From NCBI RefSeq assembly GCF_053078305.1, contig NZ_CP166879.1: a stretch of 64,000 nucleotides of DNA; one strand, given 5' to 3'. The notes beneath the pieces were generated by a model. The model ran no database searches, was not told the origin of the DNA, and saw only the letters and a program-made list of their open reading frames with translations. The position numbers and the translations under genes are program-made. Shown piece by piece: positions 6,796 to 45,672 of the stretch. Every line of letters starts with the position of its first letter. Position 1 is the stretch's first letter.

Positions 6796-6950
6796 AAAAA
6801 ATTTCTGAATTTCTTCACATTTTCGCAAAATCCATGTGGCGCTTATAATTTCGCTGCGTTAATGTTTTTCTGCCCAAAAAAATAACTCCATAACGTTAAT
6901 CTTCATCGTTATTTCCCGCAGCTCCGCTAACTCTGCGGGATTTTTTTTAT
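6796..6950 (+). ncRNA. Candidate small RNA mini-cassette, copy 3 of 3
   Basis: Same 5' box, consensus TATAAT at ~6844 with TTCGCA 16 nt upstream, hairpin CCCGCAG...CTGCGGG plus T8 at ~6916-6950, abutting the stop of I. Confidence 0.35.
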
Positions 6951-9192: not shown

Positions 9193-10347
9193 TCAGAACT
9201 GATAAGTCATACCCACAGCAACGATATTATCTGTCGCAACACCGGCTTTCCGGGTAAATTCACTTTCATCAATCAGGTTAATTTTATAATCAACATAGGT
9301 GGACATATTCTTGTTAAAGTAATAAGTCGCACCGACATCAATATATTTAACCAGATCCTGATCGCCATGGTTCACACCACCAACCATAACATCCTGTCCG
9401 CGGGACTGAAGGTAGGCAAGGGACGGGCGCAGACCAAAATCAAACTGATACTGAACAACGGCTTCGATATTCTGAGCTTTATCCGCAACACCTTGATCAC
9501 CAAAGGTCGTCATATTCTGGGTTTCAGAATACACTGCTGCCAGATACAGGTTATTGGCATCATATTTAAGACCAGTTCCCCAGAATTCAGCATGTTTACC
9601 TTTTGCCACACTACCTGAGTCAACTGTTTTTTCTCCAACCTTTTTACCTGATTCAGGATCAAGAACATCTGCAGTACCGTTCAACCCCTGAACCTGCTTA
9701 TCGGTACGATCTGACTTGGTATACGCAGCGACAAAACCAAAACCATCAAACTCATAGCTGGCCGAGAAACCATACCCGTCGCCATTAGCCTTCTGAAGGT
9801 CATCACGCTCATTTTTGCCCTGATACTGCGCCGCAAAATTCAGACCATCAACCAGTCCGAAGAAGTCTGTATTACGGTAAGTCAGGACACCGGAAGTTCG
9901 GGCCGTCATAAAGTTATCGGTCTGCGTCCAGCCATCACCACCAAACTCAGGCAGTACGTCAGTATATGATCCGACATCGTAAGCAATACCATAGTTACGT
10001 CCGTAATCAATGGTACCAACATCTGCAAATCTCAGACCTGCAAATGCCAGACGGGTTTTATTTCCCGCGGAACCTTCAGATTCCGTTTTGTTACCAGAGA
10101 ACTGGTATTCCCACTGACCAAATCCGGTCAGTTGATCATTAATCTGCGTTTCGCCTTTAAAGCCGAGACGAGCATAAGTCTGGTCTCCGTCATTACCTTT
10201 ATCATCCGAGAAGTAATGCAGAGCGGTTGCACGCCCGTAAAGATCCAGTTTATTACCATCTTTATTATAAACTTCTGCTGCCTGCGCCCCCGCAGCAAAC
10301 ATCACTGCCACTGCTACAGCAGAAAGTGCCACTGTCATTTTTTTCAT
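9193..10347 (-). CDS. OmpC/OmpF/NmpC-family general porin (prophage moron)
   Basis: 384 aa with signal peptide; [15 protein letters not shown]... and C-terminal ...YVDYKINL...F typical of enterobacterial 16-strand porins; AT-rich upstream region 10348-10545. Confidence 0.9.
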
Positions 10348-10545
10348 GATTTAATCCTTATTTAAACTGAACTATTCATGCATTCAGATGTCATGAACAA
10401 AAATTAAAATATTTTAATACAAATTCTTAGTTCAATTTATATTATGTAACAAAATGTAAATACAAGATCGATTTCGCACTTTCTGACAAGACAGATTAAA
10501 AATAATTAACAACTAAACAATAAAGAGTGATTTATAGGATAATTC

Positions 10546-38144: not shown

Positions 38145-38454
38145 AAATTACCGCAGTGATGCACTTGCATCTGTACATGAAATGATGGAGTCACTCCATG
38201 ATATCGGTGCAATCACAAAACAAACTATGCGCGAATTCGATGAAACTTGTCTTCAGCCTGCGCCGGTAATGTCTCCAGAAAGGATCCGTGCACTGCGAGA
38301 ACGAGAGCATCTGTCTCAACCTGTTTTTGCCAGATACCTCAACGTCAGTAAAAACCTGATATCAGACTGGGAACGAGGAGTGAAACGCCCGGGAGGTGCA
38401 GCTCTTCGGCTTCTTTCAGTTGTCGAGAAAAACGGGATCCAGGTAATATCCTGA
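38137..38454 (+). CDS. XRE-family HTH antitoxin / regulator
   Basis: 105 aa; ...LREREHLSQPVFARYLNVSKNLISDWERGVKRP... helix-turn-helix. Confidence 0.6.
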   Translation: MSKNYRSDALASVHEMMESLHDIGAITKQTMREFDETCLQPAPVMSPERIRALREREHLSQPVFARYLNVSKNLISDWERGVKRPGGAALRLLSVVEKNGIQVIS

Positions 38455-38556
38455 TATTCTAATACAACAAAACCCGCCGAAGCAGGTTAAGTGCGGGTGC
38501 GTTGAGGATGCCTGGCACATCAGAGGTGGCGAGGGATTTCTCCCTCGCCTGGTCTC

Positions 38557-38712
38557 TTACTCCTCAGGTTCGTAAGCTGTGAAGACAGCGACCTCCGTCT
38601 GGCCGGTTCGGATTCGTACCTCGCAGAGGTCTTTCCTCGTTACCAGTGCCGTCACTATGACGGTTAAACAGATGACGATCAGGGCGATTAACATCGCCTT
38701 TTGCTGCTTCAT
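38557..38712 (-). CDS. hokD: Hok-family type I toxin (HokD/RelF-like)
   Basis: MKQQKAMLIALIVICLTVIVTALVTRKDLCEVRIRTGQTEVAVFTAYEPEE, internal start of track ORF (a mok-like upstream extension). Confidence 0.9.
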   Translation of the reverse strand: MKQQKAMLIALIVICLTVIVTALVTRKDLCEVRIRTGQTEVAVFTAYEPEE

Positions 38713-38983
38713 AGCCTGCTTCTCCTTGCCTTTCGGCACGTAAGAGGCTAACCTACATTTGTGAGACATAGATTGGGCCTCAGATTAATGTTAAGCGTCT
38801 TGCAGGACGCGAAATGTTAACTGGGGCTTTTCTCTATCTGCCTTTTGGTGTTCATGCCTGAGACAGATAGCCTCAAGCACCCGCAGCGATTTTACAGAAA
38901 TAAGTTATTATTTTCTATCTCACCCTTCACTTATCTCATTCCTAGCTATACTCATCGTTCACACAACATTAAAGGGCATAAAA

Positions 38984-39157
38984 ATGACCGTTCATGGTAT
39001 ACAGGAAGGCAGTATTGTTAACTTACGTGAAAAAGATGGGGAATGGCTTGTAGTACAAACTATTAAAAACGACGACCTTACATATCAACTCCGAAATACA
39101 GATACCAGCGAAGAAGTAAACGTCGCACTTCAGGACATTATCTCCCCAAATAAATAA
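38984..39157 (+). CDS. Small hypothetical protein (57 aa)
   Basis: Read by eye: MTVHGIQEGSIVNLREKDGEWLVVQTIKNDDLTYQLRNTDTSEEVNVALQDIISPNK; AAAGGG RBS. Confidence 0.3.
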   Translation: MTVHGIQEGSIVNLREKDGEWLVVQTIKNDDLTYQLRNTDTSEEVNVALQDIISPNK

Positions 39158-39279
39158 TCAAATTAGCGGGGCGAACAATGCCCCGCACTGTGCTACTTAT
39201 CATCCCCAGCGGCAAATCGAATACACCACCAGCGCCACCGCCATTGCAATACCAACATTTGAGAAGGCTTCAGGCCAGC

Positions 39280-39633
39280 TCATTGGCGCACCTCCTTCGG
39301 CGGTTCTGGTAGCGACATCCAGTGTGTGGCTTCACACACGATGGGCGCACCGAAACACTGCGCATACTGGAAGTCACCCGTATTATCCAGGTTAAAACCT
39401 GTAAACTGTTCACCCGTGCTGGACACAAACAGTTGTACATCAACACCAACTGGCGGCATTCGCTCACTACAGCTTATCCAACCATCCGGAGTTACCGGAG
39501 AATTGCCAGCCTTGCGCATGGCAATCTCCATGATTTCAACCATATCTCCTGGTGGAATTTTACAAAGTTGCCCAATACATTTCTGCTGCCTGGCATATTC
39601 GAGGATGTGCTCCAGCTTGATACGATTAATCAT
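39280..39633 (-). CDS. DUF551-like phage protein
   Basis: 117 aa; ...WISCSERMPP...; nin region. Confidence 0.5.
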   Translation of the reverse strand: MINRIKLEHILEYARQQKCIGQLCKIPPGDMVEIMEIAMRKAGNSPVTPDGWISCSERMPPVGVDVQLFVSSTGEQFTGFNLDNTGDFQYAQCFGAPIVCEATHWMSLPEPPKEVRQ

Positions 39634-39983
39634 GATTTATCTCCCTGAAGCATGGCTTCGCGGCAGTCGTTCCAGCCTTCAGCATAATCACTATACGCAA
39701 GAGGCCAACCGTTTATGTATTCACGCGGCAACTTATCAGGCACTGGCGGGGCGGCGTATAGCTGGTGCGTTCCATCAGGCAGCGAGTGACCAACATACTC
39801 ACCGAACCCGTCAACACACATGCACCCATCTTCAATAATACATGAAGCTACAGGCTTCGCTTCCAGCGATGCCAGTGCGATAAGAGCCAGCTCACGAATT
39901 TCACCGCCGTCTATATCGTCAATGTCATCGCGGCCAGAAATGTTAGCCAGCCATTGCAGTCGCTCTTTGGTAATAGTGGTCAT
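39630..39983 (-). CDS. Hypothetical nin-region protein
   Basis: 117 aa; stop/start overlap with neighbours. Confidence 0.45.
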   Translation of the reverse strand: MTTITKERLQWLANISGRDDIDDIDGGEIRELALIALASLEAKPVASCIIEDGCMCVDGFGEYVGHSLPDGTHQLYAAPPVPDKLPREYINGWPLAYSDYAEGWNDCREAMLQGDKS

Positions 39984-39984
39984 C

Positions 39985-40329
39985 TCACTCTCCTTCTATG
40001 CGAATACCAGCAGCAGTCAGTACTGCATTGACCTCATCAGCGTAGTAGTACGTTAATCCACTTGATGATTTAGCCAGCTTGAATGGTTCTGGTAACTTCA
40101 CTGTGCGGGACTCCTGCTCGTCGATACGCTGTTTTGCTTCCTCCAGTTCATCCAGCAAATCAGCGATAATATCCACTTCACGATGACGGATTTCACGCTT
40201 AAACGCAGCCAAAGCTGCATCACAATCCTGCTCAGCGTTTGGACTGTCTGGTTTCTCCTGATACCACGCCAGCATCGACCGATAGTTTTGTGCTGCCTCA
40301 CGCAGCGCCTGATAATTAATCCCACTCAC
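39985..40329 (-). CDS. Hypothetical protein (start uncertain)
   Basis: Possible GTG start with AAGGAGG RBS inside track ORF 39985..40509. Confidence 0.35.
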   Translation of the reverse strand: MSGINYQALREAAQNYRSMLAWYQEKPDSPNAEQDCDAALAAFKREIRHREVDIIADLLDELEEAKQRIDEQESRTVKLPEPFKLAKSSSGLTYYYADEVNAVLTAAGIRIEGE

Positions 40330-40441
40330 TGGTTGCCTCCTTTGTGGATCTGCGCTGCGATGCACGAAAAAAAAAGACTCCCGCGTATGACTGTTAAGAG
40401 CTGGTGCGAACGCCGCGTTAAGAACGGCAGCATCACAGCCG

Positions 40442-40762
40442 TCATTGATATAGAGCGCAATTTTTTCTCCAGGCGCGCTTTGGCTTCCTGCAACTGCATA
40501 CCCCGGCACGCACGCGGGATATACTCAGCAATTTGAGCGATAGATTTTTCGTTCTGTTTAAACATGCTTCACCTCGACAGGCTTGATGGTGTCGATCAGT
40601 AGTCGGCGGCGCGTATTTTCTGCAAAGTGGCGGCGTCCGGTTTCTTTGTGGTAAAACTCGTTTTTGTCGACGACCCACATCCGCTCCGTCTGGTGCAATT
40701 TTTTTTACCTGCGGACCGTCTTTGGTGATCACGATGCCGGTATGGGTTTTTACGATTGTCAT
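40442..40762 (-). pseudogene. ORF whose plausible reading frame changes at a homopolymer run (possible frameshift, or separate short gene from internal ATG)
   Basis: After MTIVKTHTGIVITKDGPQVKK the track frame becomes low-complexity and basic; the alternative frame reads ...MWVVDKNEFYHKETGRRHFAENTRRRLLIDTIKPVEVKHV and ends overlapping the next ATG. Confidence 0.25.
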
Positions 40763-40861
40763 GCCACCACCTCTTCGAATTTCAATTGTTCACCCCAGAT
40801 TTCACATGACTCTGAACACGAGCCGGTATCGAATCGCCTGGCCTGCACCATCGCCTGATAG

Positions 40862-41047
40862 TTAATCTTCATCATCCTCACCCCACTCATCACAATAAGC
40901 TTCAACCGGAGTTTTTCCTGCTTCATAGTCATCACGCCATGCTTCAGCATCGGCGGCACTTCCACCGCGTAACTCTGCATAGTCCATTAACAGTTCATGC
41001 CATTCTTCAAAACTGGCGTTATATTTAGTTGAACCAAAATCAGCCAT
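40862..41047 (-). CDS. Small acidic protein
   Basis: 61 aa; track ORF. Confidence 0.35.
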   Translation of the reverse strand: MADFGSTKYNASFEEWHELLMDYAELRGGSAADAEAWRDDYEAGKTPVEAYCDEWGEDDED

Positions 41048-41222
41048 TTTGTTCTTCCTCTTCGTCTTTTATTTCGTGATATGAGTAATTGCAGTAGTTA
41101 AAGAAAATTTCTTTTGCTTCGTCATGAATTTCATCAGGTGTTGCGTCATCGTCCACTTCGAATACATCCTCGAAACCTCCACCGGCTATTCCCGTTTCAA
41201 TAATTATTTTGAACTTTCGCAT
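41040..41222 (-). CDS. Small acidic protein
   Basis: 60 aa; track ORF. Confidence 0.35.
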   Translation of the reverse strand: MRKFKIIIETGIAGGGFEDVFEVDDDATPDEIHDEAKEIFFNYCNYSYHEIKDEEEEQNG

Positions 41223-41369
41223 TTCACTACCACCCTGCCGGGCGGTCTCCTGATGTTCTGAGGGTGCAGGAATCCCTCCTGTTAAGGATTAAATTTTATT
41301 TACAGTGCTGATTTTAATTATTCAGATCTGGATTATGCTTTCTCTTTTACCTGCCGTAGTTCCTGGTAA

Positions 41370-41675
41370 TTAATTTCGCTCACTGGTTGCCTCCTGGAAA
41401 ATAACGGCATGTCCCAGTTTCTCCGCCAGTGCCAGTTCTGCCTTAGCGCCTGCCGACCGCTGCCAGCCTTTCAGCATATAAACCGCATCCACACAACGAA
41501 TCATTGCCATGCAAATATCCATGTAATGTGGCTGAGTCAGCCCGTCCGGAAGTACTGCCGGGTTTAAAACGGTATGCCCTTCCCGTTTCAGTGCTTCTTC
41601 CGCCTTGTGAAATGCCTCGCAGTTGAAATTTTCATATCCCGTCATTGGACCGGCGATATAAACCCTAACCCTCAC
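41370..41675 (-). CDS. DUF4406-like (nucleoside 2-deoxyribosyltransferase-like) protein
   Basis: 101 aa; MRVRVYIAGPMTGYENFN... Confidence 0.45.
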   Translation of the reverse strand: MRVRVYIAGPMTGYENFNCEAFHKAEEALKREGHTVLNPAVLPDGLTQPHYMDICMAMIRCVDAVYMLKGWQRSAGAKAELALAEKLGHAVIFQEATSERN

Positions 41676-41926
41676 TCCTGAATCCTCCTGTCGAAATAAA
41701 CGTAGTTATTCACTGTGCGCAACTTCATTCCGAACTTTTCGGCAATTTCCCGTCGGGGTACGCCGCGCTGATACAGTTGCCGCGTCAGCTCAATATCACG
41801 CTGTGAATATTTTGCCGACGGGTGAAAATCGCCACGTAACATCATGCTGATGCCCAACTCCCGTGCCTTCGTTCTCACTGCCGCTTCAGTTCGTCCGATA
41901 AGTGCGCCAATGCTTTTCACCTTCAT
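41672..41926 (-). CDS. Small HTH DNA-binding protein
   Basis: Internal start MKVKSIGALIGRTEAAVRTKARELGISMM... in track ORF 41672..42073. Confidence 0.4.
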   Translation of the reverse strand: MKVKSIGALIGRTEAAVRTKARELGISMMLRGDFHPSAKYSQRDIELTRQLYQRGVPRREIAEKFGMKLRTVNNYVYFDRRIQE

Positions 41927-41985
41927 AGTTCCCGCACACTGACGGAGTATCAGGATTTCAGCCCGGCACCACTTCTTCCAGCCAC

Positions 41986-42699
41986 TCACTGCTGCTCTCT
42001 GGTGGCGGTAATATCCCGGAGAATATCCCGGCACTTGTTCAGCTCCCGCAGAGCGGCACAGACTCGCTCCCACTTCTGAACCTGACCTTTTGCCCGGCGC
42101 AGCTCGCGGTTAGCCACATGCAGCGATGGTAGAATCAGGTCATCTGCTTTCGTTTCGGTGACCGATGGCTGTAACTTCACAATGTCTTCCACGATTTCTG
42201 TTTTCATTTCTTCCTGTGTTTCCGCTTCCCGGACTGGTAACGCAACACCTGCTGGCTGAGGAAAGGCTTTACCATCGTTTTTCTCTGCGGATGTAACTTC
42301 CAGCTCTGCTGGTAAATCAGCGCCCGGTATGCAGTAACGAAATTTACCGCCCTGATTCACGCGAATCAGACGCCCTTTGCTGATTGCCATGGCCAGCGAT
42401 GAATTCGCCCGGCGGGAGGTAATCCCGAACATCAGTGCCAGCTCATCCGCCGTTTGTGGGCCATGTTGTTCAATCGCCTCAGTCAGCATTTGCGCTGTCA
42501 CTTTCGGTACCGGTGACACTGGTTCACTTTCACCAGCCTGAATCAGCCACCACATCGACCCCTTGTTATCCGCTTCACCGCGGCGCTTCAGTTTCCACAG
42601 TTCGTTGACAGCATCTTCGCGGCTGATTCCAAGGCGCGATGCCACTACCTGTGAAGAGGCTCTTTTCAGTGCTTTCAGTGCGTCAAATACGGTTTCCAT
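41986..42699 (-). CDS. Hypothetical replication-module protein
   Basis: 237 aa immediately downstream of the DnaC-like gene. Confidence 0.4.
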   Translation of the reverse strand: METVFDALKALKRASSQVVASRLGISREDAVNELWKLKRRGEADNKGSMWWLIQAGESEPVSPVPKVTAQMLTEAIEQHGPQTADELALMFGITSRRANSSLAMAISKGRLIRVNQGGKFRYCIPGADLPAELEVTSAEKNDGKAFPQPAGVALPVREAETQEEMKTEIVEDIVKLQPSVTETKADDLILPSLHVANRELRRAKGQVQKWERVCAALRELNKCRDILRDITATREQQ

Positions 42700-42728
42700 T
42701 AAAATTTCCTCCGGATAAAAATTACTTC

Positions 42729-43469
42729 TCAGTTCCTGTGCTGGCTGACGTTCGGACGCCAGCTCTCCCAGTTAAACGTCACCCAGCGACCACCGTTCAT
42801 GGACATGCGGTCCATCACCCGCTCGCCGAGAAGTGTATTCATCGCTGCATGGTTAAGATTTGTCAGCATCCCCACACTGAGTAACGATGCCGTTCTGCGG
42901 TCAACAATCTGATTCAGCGTGACCTGCTCATTACGCGTATCCCGTTGCATGCCAATTTCATCCAGTACCAGCAGGTCAACGCCACACAATCCCTGCAAAA
43001 ATTTTTCGCCCGAGTTTTTGTTGTCGTAGCTGCCATGTAACGCCAGCATCACATCCGCCACTGTTATCACAATCACACTGCGACCTTTCGCCAGAAGGTG
43101 GTTGCCAATAGCCGCCGCCAGGTGGTTTTTTCCTGTGCCAGGCCTGCCACTGAAAACAAAATTCGTACAGCCGCCTTCCAGCTCTGCCGCAATGGATTTC
43201 GCCTGACTCAGGGCATGGCGCTGACCATCGTTCTGCACCCGGTAGTTACCGAACGTACACTTCCGGTGAAGCGGCTGGATACCGGAGCGGTTAATGATTT
43301 TTTCAACCCGCGTCTGATGATTCAGACGATTAACCTCCTCGCTTCGCTTACGCCCTTCAGCAAGCTGCCATTCCCGCCACTCCGCCACCGTACGGTACGG
43401 AGGGATTGCATCCTGCGGCACAAATCTGCTGACTCTTGCCAGAACACCACCTGACGTAATGTTTTTCAT
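42729..43469 (-). CDS. DnaC-like helicase loader (AAA+ ATPase)
   Basis: 246 aa; Walker A GRPGTGKNHL, Walker B LLVLDEIG. Confidence 0.85.
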   Translation of the reverse strand: MKNITSGGVLARVSRFVPQDAIPPYRTVAEWREWQLAEGRKRSEEVNRLNHQTRVEKIINRSGIQPLHRKCTFGNYRVQNDGQRHALSQAKSIAAELEGGCTNFVFSGRPGTGKNHLAAAIGNHLLAKGRSVIVITVADVMLALHGSYDNKNSGEKFLQGLCGVDLLVLDEIGMQRDTRNEQVTLNQIVDRRTASLLSVGMLTNLNHAAMNTLLGERVMDRMSMNGGRWVTFNWESWRPNVSQHRN

Positions 43470-43475
43470 GATGCG

Positions 43476-44465
43476 CTACCCCCTGAAACCCGGCGGAATT
43501 TCGGTATCCGGTTCAGAAATATGATTCACGCAACGCTGCGCGGGACCACGCCACAGTCGAATAACCAGTTCATCCCATTTCTCACGGAGTTTTTCCGGGC
43601 TCTTGATGTTTTTTATCCAGAACGGATCCCGTTGTGCCCGGCTGAACATTTCGCAAATTTGTCTGTGACTTCTTCCATCCAGCATCCGCATTGTGCGCAC
43701 GTCATTGGCCCACGCCGTCCAGTTGGGCTCTTTCGGTCGCGTGATCTCACCATCGTCACTGGCAGCCTGTTCGTACAGGTTTACAACCCGCCCCCAGATC
43801 CACTGCGCACACGTCAAATCCTCCCGGGTTCCCCACTGGCGTTTTTTCACGCTGAACACAACTGCATCAGGATGGCGGGTTAAAAACGCCTGTTCAGCCG
43901 TCAGCTCGTCCGGTTGCGAAGCGTCCGGACAAGAGAGTTTTTTATTCTCTGTTGTATTCTCTGTTGTATTCTCTGTTGTATTCTCTGTTGTATTCTCTGT
44001 AGGATCATCGGGCCATTTTGACCTGATGACATTGGGCCGTTTTGAACCAATGGAACGTTTCATTTTGACCTCTTCCATCGTGTCATTTTGACCTGATGGA
44101 GTGGCGCATTTTGACCCGATGGATTCGTTCACTTTGCCATCATCTAAAAGCGCGCTATCGTAGTTAATTGTGTAAAAATTAGTCATATCACGCTTCGATT
44201 TATTGAGCTTTTCGCTACGCAAAAGCCCCAGCGCTTTCAGACTTGCAAACGCACGCTTTAACGTTGACTCTGACCAGAACGGAAACTGTTCCAGCCATTG
44301 TTCCGTTGTGTTGTAAATCCAGCGAACGCCATCACATTCCATGCCGGAACTGGTATCCCTCAACCAGTAATGCAGTTGCTGCAACACAATGGCTTCGTTT
44401 AAACCAATCTTCATCGCCAGCTGTGTGTTTATAACCAGCGGGCGTTCAGCAAAAAGAAGGCTCAT
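43476..44465 (-). CDS. Replication initiator (O-like) containing origin iterons
   Basis: Internal start in track ORF 43476..44507; central TENTTENTTENTTENTTEN encoded by 12-bp tandem repeats. Confidence 0.65.
   Translation of the reverse strand: MSLLFAERPLVINTQLAMKIGLNEAIVLQQLHYWLRDTSSGMECDGVRWIYNTTEQWLEQFPFWSESTLKRAFASLKALGLLRSEKLNKSKRDMTNFYTINYDSALLDDGKVNESIGSKCATPSGQNDTMEEVKMKRSIGSKRPNVIRSKWPDDPTENTTENTTENTTENTTENKKLSCPDASQPDELTAEQAFLTRHPDAVVFSVKKRQWGTREDLTCAQWIWGRVVNLYEQAASDDGEITRPKEPNWTAWANDVRTMRMLDGRSHRQICEMFSRAQRDPFWIKNIKSPEKLREKWDELVIRLWRGPAQRCVNHISEPDTEIPPGFRG
43941..44001. repeat. About five tandem 12-bp repeats (TTCTCTGTTGTA), candidate origin iterons
   Basis: Seen directly in sequence inside the initiator gene. 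Confidence 0.7.
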
Positions 44466-44967
44466 AATTCCATCCGGCTTTTTGTTGGTACTGGTGACGA
44501 TAGGCACGCTTGAAAGCGATTGCTTTTTCTATAAGCTCGTCTGTCTCACGTTCCACAACAGCTGGATCTGCAAAAAGCAGCCCGGACTCCACCACATCGC
44601 CATATTCTTTGTTTAACCCGGCAATCATGTACGTAATGCTTTTTCCGTCAGTAATTTCGCGGTACAACCTGAAATCACTAATCCGGATAGCCTCCATAAT
44701 TGCCGGAATCAGCGCCGTGAATTTTTCTCGCTTATCCCTGGTGTCGATAGCCTTCCAGCGTTCGAATATCTTCACCCGGTTAACGCCAAGCGCACGCTGA
44801 TCAACCCCGCCATCATCAAGCGTGACACGCTGAACATCGATGTTCGGGCGTTCCTGTAGAGCCCAGAAGGCTTCAGTAATTAATATCGTCGCCTGCTCCT
44901 GCGTCATTCCTGGTCGGCTTATCCAGGCATCCAGGGCATCGCGTGCCTGCTCAAGGGTGATTTTCAT
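44446..44967 (-). CDS. Hypothetical protein in the cII slot
   Basis: 173 aa between cro-like gene and initiator. Confidence 0.4.
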   Translation of the reverse strand: MKITLEQARDALDAWISRPGMTQEQATILITEAFWALQERPNIDVQRVTLDDGGVDQRALGVNRVKIFERWKAIDTRDKREKFTALIPAIMEAIRISDFRLYREITDGKSITYMIAGLNKEYGDVVESGLLFADPAVVERETDELIEKAIAFKRAYRHQYQQKAGWNYEPSFC

Positions 44968-45181
44968 TGTTCAACCGCCCCGCCCGCTTCGTCTTACGAT
45001 ATTCGTCATAAACTTTGGGGTCATACTGAAGCTCCCCGCCGGATGCCTCTTGCAGGCGCATCGCGCGACCTTCAGGTACTAGCTCCCCTTTCCAGCTATA
45101 AAGCGAAGCCAAACGAATACCAGCAGCTTGTGCGAGTTTTGTTTTTGAACCGAAATACAAAAGTGCGTCAGTTTTAAGCAT
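44951..45181 (-). CDS. dicC: Cro-like repressor DicC
   Basis: MLKTDALLYFGSKTKLAQAAGIRLASLYSWKG...; divergent from dicA. Confidence 0.85.
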   Translation of the reverse strand: MLKTDALLYFGSKTKLAQAAGIRLASLYSWKGELVPEGRAMRLQEASGGELQYDPKVYDEYRKTKRAGRLNNENHP

Positions 45182-45264
45182 TTAAAGCACCCTGAATGTT
45201 AGTCATGACTAACAAAATAGATGTTAACAAAAACATAGTCAATAAGATTTAGCATTAGCTAACT

Positions 45265-45672
45265 ATGGATACAAAAAATTTAACCATTGGCGAACGCATT
45301 AGATATCGCCGAAAAAGCCTCAAATACACCCAAAGGTCTCTTGCTAAAGCCCTGAAAATTTCTCATGTATCGGTTTCACAATGGGAACGGGATGACAGCG
45401 AACCGACAGGGAAGAATCTTTTTGCCCTCAGCAACGTACTGCAGTGCTCGCCAACATGGATTCTATTTGGCGATGAAGACAAGCAGCCATCACCACCTAT
45501 TGAGGAGCCAGTTGCTCTATCCCCCAAAGAACATGAGCTCCTTGAGCTTTTTAATGCATTGCCTGAATCAGAACAGGATGCTCAGCTCACCGAGATGCGC
45601 GCCCGAGTAAAAAATTTCAACAAACTCTTTGAAGAGTTATTAAAAGCCCGTCAACGAACAAACAAAAGATAA
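45265..45672 (+). CDS. dicA: Immunity repressor DicA (HTH XRE)
   Basis: MDTKNLTIGERIRYRRKSLKYTQRSLAKALKISHVSVSQWERDDSEPTGKNLFALSNVLQCSPTWILFGDEDKQP... Confidence 0.9.
   Translation: MDTKNLTIGERIRYRRKSLKYTQRSLAKALKISHVSVSQWERDDSEPTGKNLFALSNVLQCSPTWILFGDEDKQPSPPIEEPVALSPKEHELLELFNALPESEQDAQLTEMRARVKNFNKLFEELLKARQRTNKR

What the first reader, a model, noticed from the sequence alone, without database searches (positions are those of the whole stretch)
40326..40762. Reading frames of small nin-region genes change at homopolymer runs
Around an A/T homopolymer near 40661-40668 the plausible protein (...VKK then ...MWVVDKNEFYHKETGRRHFAENTRRRLLIDTIKPVEVKHV, ending in an ATGTTTAA stop/start overlap with the next gene) switches frame relative to the supplied ORF, whose continuation is low-complexity. 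A similar switch occurs near an A-run at ~40462. This could be a genuine frameshift pseudogene, slippage-prone regulation, or a sequencing error. My own reading of homopolymer lengths is not reliable enough to decide.
Basis: seen in the sequence. Interest (0 to 1): 0.35.

Follow-up and report, generated by a model that had tools for sequence, protein, structure and literature searches.

The report
Homopolymer frameshifts in two prophage genes
Two tiny prophage genes of unknown function have gained or lost single bases at three A/T runs, which breaks one gene and scrambles the middle of the other; this looks like ordinary mutational decay, not a new mechanism.

Summary
The frame changes are real, and there are three, not two. 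All genes here are on the minus strand.

**Three changed runs, compared with intact homologues:**
- Coding-strand A8 at 40699-40706, against A7 in homologues. This is a +1 insertion.
- A6 at 40461-40466, against A7. This is a -1 deletion.
- T9 at 40367-40375, against T8. This is a +1 insertion.

**Effects on the genes:**
- The first change splits a 67-aa gene (phrog_1226).
- The second and third lie in a 79-aa gene (phrog_1344) and cancel out. The ORF stays open, but 29 central codons are read out of frame.

**Evidence that they are real:**
- The window has no substitutions against an intact haplotype over 460 nt.
- A contig assembled from sequencing run SRR17945621 reproduces all three run lengths exactly.
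- About 55 kb of the rest of the window shows only one other homopolymer difference, and it is intergenic.

**Population picture:** the same three runs vary at low frequency in other E. coli and Klebsiella prophages, so they are slippage hotspots. I found no sign of programmed recoding or of selection.

**Verdict:** ordinary strain-specific frameshift mutations in dispensable nin-like genes. A systematic sequencing error is not fully excluded without reads. Interest is low.

The parts
40558..40762 (-). Gene 1, a frameshifted copy of a 67-aa phage protein (phrog_1226; WP_001563025.1 when intact). Its ATG is at 40762-40760 and its true stop TAA at 40560-40558.
   Evidence: One search shows the intact protein matching phrog_1226 at 1-67/67 (E 1.2e-41). 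One search shows the window's two frames matching profile positions 1-22 and 22-67 separately.
40699..40706 (-). Run 1: A8 on the coding strand (T8 on +). It is a +1 insertion relative to the A7 of homologues. Codons read GTA AAA AAA A|TT.
   Evidence: alignment. A7 is present in 88 of 89 scorable IMG/VR loci.
40442..40762 (-). The 106-aa ORF produced by the frameshift: 21 native residues followed by 85 out-of-frame residues.
   Evidence: This exact product is absent from the 15-billion-protein collection.
40558..40565 (-). ATGTTTAA overlap between the stop of gene 1 and the start of gene 2.
   Evidence: It is invariant in all aligned homologues.
40326..40565 (-). Gene 2, a 79-aa ORF (phrog_1344; WP_001563026.1 when intact). 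It is open, but its middle is out of frame.
40461..40466 (-). Run 2: A6 on the coding strand (T6 on +). It is a -1 deletion relative to A7.
   Evidence: A6 is also present in Z1323MEC, where NCBI's PGAP annotation pipeline marks the gene 'frameshifted', and in IMG/VR loci L067 and L092.
40374..40460 (-). The 29 codons of gene 2 read out of frame. The window reads LRSISMTAVMLPFLTRRSHQLLTVIRGSL where the intact protein reads IALYINDGCDAAVLNAAFAPALNSHTRES.
   Evidence: One search shows the native frame of this stretch matching phrog_1344 positions 34-67.
40367..40375 (-). Run 3: T9 on the coding strand (A9 on +), the longest homopolymer in the window. It is a +1 insertion relative to T8 and restores the frame of gene 2.
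39985..40329 (-). Downstream ead/Ea22-like gene (114 aa). Its GTG start overlaps the gene 2 stop as GTGA.
   Evidence: One search gives PF13935 at E 2.5e-7.
40759..40860 (-). 3' remnant of a PAPS reductase gene. Its stop overlaps the gene 1 start as ATGA.
   Evidence: Annotation of homologues. The full-length gene is present in phage Lyz12581Vzw.

Best explanation
Three independent single-base length changes arose by strand slippage during DNA replication. They sit in mononucleotide tracts of two small, dispensable genes of a lambdoid prophage, in the delayed-early segment between the replication genes and Q.

**What changed.**
- A7 to A8 in gene 1 destroys the reading frame after codon 21.
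- A7 to A6 followed by T8 to T9 in gene 2 shift and then restore the frame. The result is a same-length protein with 29 scrambled central residues.

**What follows.**
- Both genes are best treated as inactivated.
- The stop/start overlaps that link gene 2 to the downstream Ea22-like gene are unchanged.
- These tracts are mutational hotspots across this gene cassette.
- The genes are probably silent in the lysogen and under weak selection, so such alleles persist.

**Shown versus inferred.** Shown: the indels, their effect on the frames, their rarity, and their recurrence elsewhere. Inferred: replication slippage as the cause, loss of function, and neutrality.
For: **The indels and what they do.**
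- the only indels within the two genes, against three homologues, are at the three runs.
- the intact forms give full-length matches to phrog_1226 and phrog_1344.
- the window's ORFs match those profiles only in pieces.

**The haplotype.** One search shows 0 substitutions in 460 nt against the intact JNEC-KY171 haplotype. It shows 1 substitution against Z1323MEC, which already carries A6 and which PGAP annotates as 'frameshifted'.

**Reproducibility.**
- Logan contig SRR17945621_128 is 100% identical over 1161 nt, including A8, A6 and T9.
- about 55 kb of the window compared with its nearest relatives shows only one other homopolymer length difference, an intergenic one at 6941.
- The 12-kb chromosomal flank, which includes the 8-kb yeeJ gene, has 0 indels.

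**Population frequency.**
- the intact proteins occur on 838 and 577 or more contigs. The window's 79-aa form occurs on 1.
- of 90 IMG/VR loci, 84 have the in-frame run lengths or synonymous/interrupted forms of them.
- The remaining six are 2 with T7, 1 with T9, 2 with A6, and the window's own genome.
- frameshift products for every run recur on several haplotypes.
  - A8 at run 1: about 27 contigs.
  - A6 at run 1: about 7 contigs.
  - A6 at run 2: 42, 15 and about 9 contigs on different haplotypes.
  - T7 at run 3: more than 100 contigs.
- One search also shows A8 at run 2 in Klebsiella on 58 contigs.

**Literature.** Indel rates in E. coli rise exponentially with homopolymer length (PMC8510543).
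Against: - No read-level data were available, so a systematic platform error shared by two data sets cannot be excluded.
- Three indels with zero substitutions in 460 nt is a strong local excess. It suggests either a past mutator episode or selection, and I could not test either.
- Loss of function is inferred, because neither protein has a known function or assay.
Confidence: 0.8

Rival explanations
1. Sequencing or assembly error: the true DNA is A7/A7/T8, and the run lengths were miscalled by a platform that handles homopolymers badly.
For: - All three differences are single-base length changes in runs of 6-9 nt.
- One of them is the longest run in the window.
- They are the only differences from an intact haplotype.
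Against: - A contig assembled from run SRR17945621 carries the same three lengths.
- The same sequence is in IMG/VR under an IMG genome id (L079).
- Every other run of 7 nt or more in the compared regions matches its relatives, apart from an intergenic T8/T9 length difference at 6941 and one run shortened by a substitution at 14140. Long genes such as yeeJ and the tail and head genes carry no such indels.
- A6 is shared with the independently sequenced Z1323MEC genome.
Confidence: 0.1
2. Slippage-prone regulation: the tracts are programmed sites. Transcriptional slippage, ribosomal frameshifting or phase variation would set the expression of the small proteins or create fusions, for example gene 2 fused to Ea22 when run 3 is T9 in an A7 background.
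For: - A/T runs of 8-9 nt support productive RNA polymerase slippage in some systems (PMC1088944).
- All three tracts vary in length in natural populations.
- IMG/VR locus L064 carries A7/T9, which is predicted to fuse gene 2 to Ea22.
Against: - More than 90% of homologues have tract lengths that encode the full-length proteins directly, so no recoding is needed.
- Synonymous sites inside the tracts are no more conserved than other third-codon positions: 2 of 8 are polymorphic, against 36% overall.
- Run 2 is interrupted in L013 and L021.
- The out-of-frame continuations match nothing except other frameshift alleles.
Confidence: 0.04
3. Selection-driven changes: either the two genes were inactivated because that was advantageous, or the T9 insertion was selected to restore the gene 2 frame and its coupling to the Ea22-like gene.
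For: - Three of the four homopolymer differences in about 55 kb cluster within 340 bp.
- The -1/+1 pair restores the native C-terminus and the GTGA overlap.
- The same A6+T9 combination occurs on a second haplotype (P0084).
Against: - T9 is about as rare among A6 alleles (about 2 of about 70 contigs) as among A7 alleles (1 of about 85 loci).
- In the uncompensated A6/T8 state, translation still stops only 9 nt past the Ea22 start, so little coupling would be lost.
- Overall allele frequencies of a few percent fit neutral hotspots.
Confidence: 0.06

Closest known systems
Frameshifted pseudogenes at mononucleotide runs in prophages, as annotated by PGAP (for example WHU19_RS13940 in E. coli Z1323MEC0001)
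   Same: It is the same gene and the same A7-to-A6 deletion, and PGAP annotates it 'frameshifted'. Slippage at homopolymers is the standard source of small indels in E. coli (PMC8510543).
   Different: The window carries two further changes. One is a compensating T8-to-T9 insertion, so gene 2 stays open and would escape pseudogene flags that rely on ORF length. The other is a +1 insertion in the neighbouring gene.
Programmed transcriptional slippage sites (Thermus thermophilus dnaX A9, Shigella mxiE, IS-element A9/T9 runs)
   Same: They are A or T runs of 8-9 nt inside coding sequence, where RNA polymerase can add or drop a base. A low level of rescue of gene 1 from the A8 template is conceivable (PMC1088944).
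   Different: In programmed cases the out-of-frame arrangement and the long run are conserved among homologues. Here homologues are in frame with shorter runs (A7/A7/T8), and the long runs are private to this strain.
Phase-variable contingency loci with simple-sequence tracts
   Same: Tract length varies between related elements, with on/off consequences for an ORF.
   Different: The variant alleles are rare, at a few percent. The tracts are short for A/T phase variation. No surface or restriction function is involved, and no within-clone switching has been shown.
Compensated (paired) frameshift mutations
   Same: A -1 and a +1 indel 94 nt apart restore the downstream frame and leave a scrambled internal segment.
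   Different: There is no evidence that the scrambled protein keeps its function or that the second event was selected.

Membership tests
phrog_1226 (67-aa phage protein, unknown function) | End-to-end match of a single ORF to the 67-position profile | tested here: not met
   The window's 106-aa ORF matches only profile positions 1-22, and a second frame matches 22-67. Removing one A gives WP_001563025.1, which matches 1-67/67. The window copy is therefore a frameshifted member, not an intact one.
phrog_1344 (79-aa phage protein, unknown function) | End-to-end match with native residues across the profile | tested here: inconclusive
   The window ORF aligns 1-79/79, but its score is halved (88 against 176 bits). 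The native middle, profile positions 34-67, is encoded in another frame. The protein keeps its length, but 29 of 79 residues are not homologous.
Programmed transcriptional slippage / recoding site | The split-frame arrangement is conserved among homologues, so a frameshift is needed to make the product | tested here: not met
   84 of 90 IMG/VR loci and the dominant protein clusters are in frame.
Programmed transcriptional slippage / recoding site | The slippery run is preserved against synonymous change | tested here: not met
   2 of the 8 synonymous sites in the tracts are polymorphic, against 36% of all third-codon positions. Run 2 is interrupted in L013 and L021. Statistical power is low.
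Programmed transcriptional slippage / recoding site | Heterogeneous run length in mRNA, and a protein product from the shifted frame | not testable with these tools
   This needs cDNA amplicon sequencing or mass spectrometry.
Phase-variable contingency locus | Tract-length polymorphism among closely related elements | tested here: met
   All three runs show +1 or -1 alleles on several haplotypes, though only at a few percent.
Phase-variable contingency locus | High-frequency reversible switching within a clone | not testable with these tools
   This needs read-level heterogeneity data or fluctuation assays.
Sequencing artefact | Run lengths are not reproduced in independent data, and homopolymer errors are spread across the assembly | tested here: not met
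   An identical Logan contig exists. Only one other homopolymer difference, an intergenic one, appears in about 55 kb. Whether the two read sets are truly independent could not be verified.

The most novel reading that the evidence does not exclude
The three tracts act together as a slippage-controlled switch, at the DNA or RNA level. In different length combinations it would yield the two native small proteins, a long read-through product in the alternative frame, or a gene 2::Ea22 fusion. The alternative frame is open for 148 codons across both genes. On this reading the cassette is a variable-output module rather than decaying genes.
Probability: 0.04. Interest if true: 0.45.

Novelty: already known. 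Interest (0 to 1): 0.1.

Why it matters
The value is mainly practical.

- Gene 1 should be annotated as a frameshifted pseudogene.
- The open 79-aa ORF of gene 2 hides a compensated double frameshift that checks based on ORF length would miss.
- The data also show that these three A/T tracts are recurrent indel hotspots in a cassette widespread in E. coli, Shigella and Klebsiella prophages and Stx phages. This helps when judging 'frameshifted' calls there.
- Nothing here challenges current understanding.

Tried and rejected
**Functional assignment of the two proteins.** Pfam, NCBIfam and PDB sequence searches gave nothing significant. PHROGs gave only families of unknown function. I did not predict structures, because function does not bear on the verdict.

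**A general homopolymer problem in the window.** I rejected this after blastn comparison of about 55 kb with the nearest relatives.

**Counting alleles in complete E. coli genomes with short BLAST queries.** I did not run these. SNPs next to the runs in the roughly 93%-identical haplotypes would confound exact-match counts. I used exact protein look-ups and an anchored IMG/VR scan instead.

**Selection for compensation.** I looked for an excess of A6+T9 alleles and found none.

**Selective preservation of the tracts.** I tested for it and found none.

**A misleading cluster.** The collection's 90% clustering placed the window's 79-aa protein in a cluster led by an Ea22-like protein. Inspecting the sequences showed this to be a clustering artefact, not a fusion.

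Full report
**Setting.** The window is E. coli chromosome carrying a lambdoid prophage.
- Tail, head and lysis genes occupy roughly 1-30 kb.
- The integrase lies next to tRNA-Ser/mtfA near 52 kb, and yeeJ and shiA follow on the right flank.
- The finding lies on the minus strand.
- The gene order there runs: cro-like regulator, YdaT, replication genes, DUF1627, DUF977, DUF4406, DUF7167, a 61-aa gene, a PAPS-reductase remnant, gene 1, gene 2, an Ea22-like gene, hokD, DUF968, RusA, Q (from the colinear relative JNEC-KY171).
- The two genes therefore sit between the replication genes and Q. 'nin region' is a fair positional label.

**The observation.**
- The ORF list gives a 106-aa ORF at 40762..40442. 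It starts MTIVKTHTGIVITKDGPQVKK and continues as Arg/Pro-rich sequence.
- A 46-aa ORF in another frame (40698..40558) ends ...IKPVEVKHV, in an ATGTTTAA overlap with the next gene.
- The next gene is a 79-aa ORF at 40565..40326. A 174-aa ORF overlaps it in yet another frame.
- Reading the sequence places the first frame change at the coding-strand A8 run at 40699-40706.

**Comparison with homologues.**
- Megablast finds the cassette in 763 of 5,426 complete E. coli genomes and in 92 phage records, mostly Stx2a-converting phages. Most hits are 90-95% identical.
- In E. coli JNEC-KY171 and in phage Lyz12581Vzw the region is annotated as two intact genes of 204 nt (67 aa) and 240 nt (79 aa).
- The four-way alignment shows that, inside the two genes, the window differs in length at exactly three places:

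| Run | Window (coding strand) | Intact homologues | Change |
|---|---|---|---|
| 1, at 40699-40706 | A8 | A7 | +1 |
| 2, at 40461-40466 | A6 | A7 | -1 |
| 3, at 40367-40375 | T9 | T8 | +1 |

- The intact proteins are MTIVKTHTGIVITKDGPQVKKLHQTERMWVVDKNEFYHKETGRRHFAENTRRRLLIDTIKPVEVKHV and MFKQNEKSIAQIAEYIPRACRGMQLQEAKARLEKKIALYINDGCDAAVLNAAFAPALNSHTRESFFSCIAAQIHKGGNQ.
- Gene 1 is therefore frameshifted after codon 21.
- Gene 2 has a -1 and a +1 change 94 nt apart. Its first 35 and last 15 residues are native. The 29 residues between them are read out of frame (LRSISMTAVMLPFLTRRSHQLLTVIRGSL).
It is the longest homopolymer in the whole window.

**Profile confirmation.**
- The intact proteins match phrog_1226 (1-67/67, E 1.2e-41) and phrog_1344 (1-79/79, 176 bits) end to end.
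- The window's 106-aa ORF matches phrog_1226 only at positions 1-22, and the other-frame ORF matches 22-67.
- The window's 79-aa ORF drops to 88 bits, and the displaced frame matches phrog_1344 positions 34-67.
- Both families have unknown function. Pfam, NCBIfam and PDB sequence searches gave nothing significant.

**Real or artefact?**
- The window's exact 79-aa protein exists on one other contig in the 15-billion-protein collection, a Logan assembly of run SRR17945621.
- That 1,162-nt contig is 100% identical to window 40276-41436, including A8, A6 and T9.
- An IMG/VR contig (L079, IMG genome 2617271340) is 100% identical to window 38302-45442. It is presumably the source genome.
- I compared about 55 kb of the window with its nearest relatives by blastn:
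  - The 12-kb chromosomal flank, including the 8-kb yeeJ gene, has no indels at 98.9% identity.
  - The 14-kb tail region has one homopolymer difference, an intergenic T8 against T9 at 6941.
  - The 9.3-kb head region has none.
- The assembly is therefore not generally unreliable at homopolymers.
- Z1323MEC, a separately sequenced genome one substitution away, shares the A6 allele, and PGAP annotates it as 'frameshifted'.
- I could not inspect reads or confirm that the two read sets are independent. An artefact keeps about 10% probability.

**Population picture.**
- Over 460 nt the window has zero substitutions against the intact JNEC-KY171 haplotype. The three indels are the only changes.
- An anchored scan of IMG/VR returned 90 loci. 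Their states were:
  - 84 have the in-frame run lengths, counting two in which run 2 is interrupted by a substitution;
  - 2 have T7;
  - 1 has T9, predicted to fuse gene 2 to Ea22;
  - 2 have A6;
  - 1 is the window's own genome.
- Exact look-ups of predicted frameshift products show that every run has variant alleles on several haplotypes:

| Allele | Contigs |
|---|---|
| Run 1, A8 | about 27 (including an O26:H11 GenBank protein) |
| Run 1, A6 | about 7 |
| Run 2, A6 | 42, 15 and about 9, on different backgrounds |
| Run 2, A8 (Klebsiella) | 58 |
| Run 3, T7 | more than 100 |

- The intact forms sit on many hundreds to thousands of contigs.
- The tracts are therefore recurrent hotspots, with variant alleles at a few percent.
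- This fits the exponential dependence of indel rate on run length in E. coli (PMC8510543).

**Tests of the more interesting readings.**

*Selection for compensation.*
- The A6+T9 combination occurs on a second haplotype (P0084, one contig).
- T9 is about as rare among A6 alleles (about 2 of about 70 contigs) as among A7 alleles (1 of about 85 loci).
- In the uncompensated state, translation still stops 9 nt past the Ea22 start.
- There is no evidence of selection.

*Programmed slippage.*
- Homologues need no frameshift.
- Synonymous sites within the tracts are no more conserved than other third-codon positions: 2 of 8 are polymorphic, against 36% overall.
- Run 2 is interrupted in two loci.
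- Runs of 8-9 A or T can support RNA polymerase slippage (PMC1088944). A low level of native gene 1 product from A7 transcripts is therefore conceivable. That would be incidental leakiness, not design.

**Mechanism and verdict.**
- The most likely history is A7/A7/T8, then A7/A6/T8 (as in Z1323MEC), then A8/A6/T9. Each step would be a replication-slippage event in a tract of a gene that is silent in the lysogen and dispensable.
- Gene 1 is a pseudogene. Gene 2 is an open but internally scrambled ORF and is probably non-functional.
- The chain of overlapping stops and starts (ATGA, ATGTTTAA, GTGA) is intact, apart from the ribosome path through gene 1.
- This is an ordinary, already understood kind of event.
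- The only mildly unusual points are the compensated pair and the clustering of three events in 340 bp with no substitutions. The clustering might reflect a mutator episode, which I could not test.

Noticed in passing
window 40296-40341, 41350-41395 and 40849-40867: A conserved junction sequence, AGGAGGCAACCAGTGAG..ATTAATTAYCAGG on the minus strand, recurs at gene boundaries. It carries the ribosome-binding site and the first codons (S-x-INYQ) of Ea22-like genes. The copy at 41333-41410 heads only a 25-aa Ea22 remnant after DUF4406. The partial copy at 40849-40867 lies at the start of the PAPS-reductase remnant. These look like recombination boundary sequences of mosaic phage modules.
   Followed up: partly
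window 40759-40860 (-): Only the last ~100 nt of a PAPS reductase gene remain. The gene is full length (879 nt) in phage Lyz12581Vzw. The window and Z1323MEC also lack 6 nt (AATTGG) that are present in JNEC-KY171 and the phage.
   Followed up: partly
window 40320-40762 (-), alternative frame: In haplotypes with A7 at run 2, the frame entered by a +1 insertion at run 1 stays open for 148 codons. It runs across both genes and ends just past the Ea22 start. The product is Arg-rich, and it appears in databases only as frameshift alleles. It is probably chance.
   Followed up: partly
window 6941-6948: An intergenic T8 run, apparently a terminator-like T tract after GCGGGA, is T9 in the closest relative (2015C-3121). 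It is the only other homopolymer length difference found in about 55 kb.
   Followed up: no
window 17606-20190 (-): The relative JNEC-KY171 annotates this stretch as one 'frameshifted' portal gene. The window has no indel relative to it and shows two ORFs of 454 and 407 aa overlapping by 4 nt. These may be a genuine portal plus protease/scaffold pair rather than a frameshift.
   Followed up: no
window ~9200-10350 and ~2430-2570 (by colinearity with L005): In the near-identical relative, the tail-gene region carries an ompC-like porin gene and a hok/gef toxin gene as cargo inside the prophage.
   Followed up: no
window 34744 and 34815: Against JNEC-KY171 the window has a 1-nt gap (A3 against A4) and a 2-nt gap, in or near a small hypothetical gene. 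Both are close to the edge of the aligned block, so they may simply mark a mosaic boundary.
   Followed up: no
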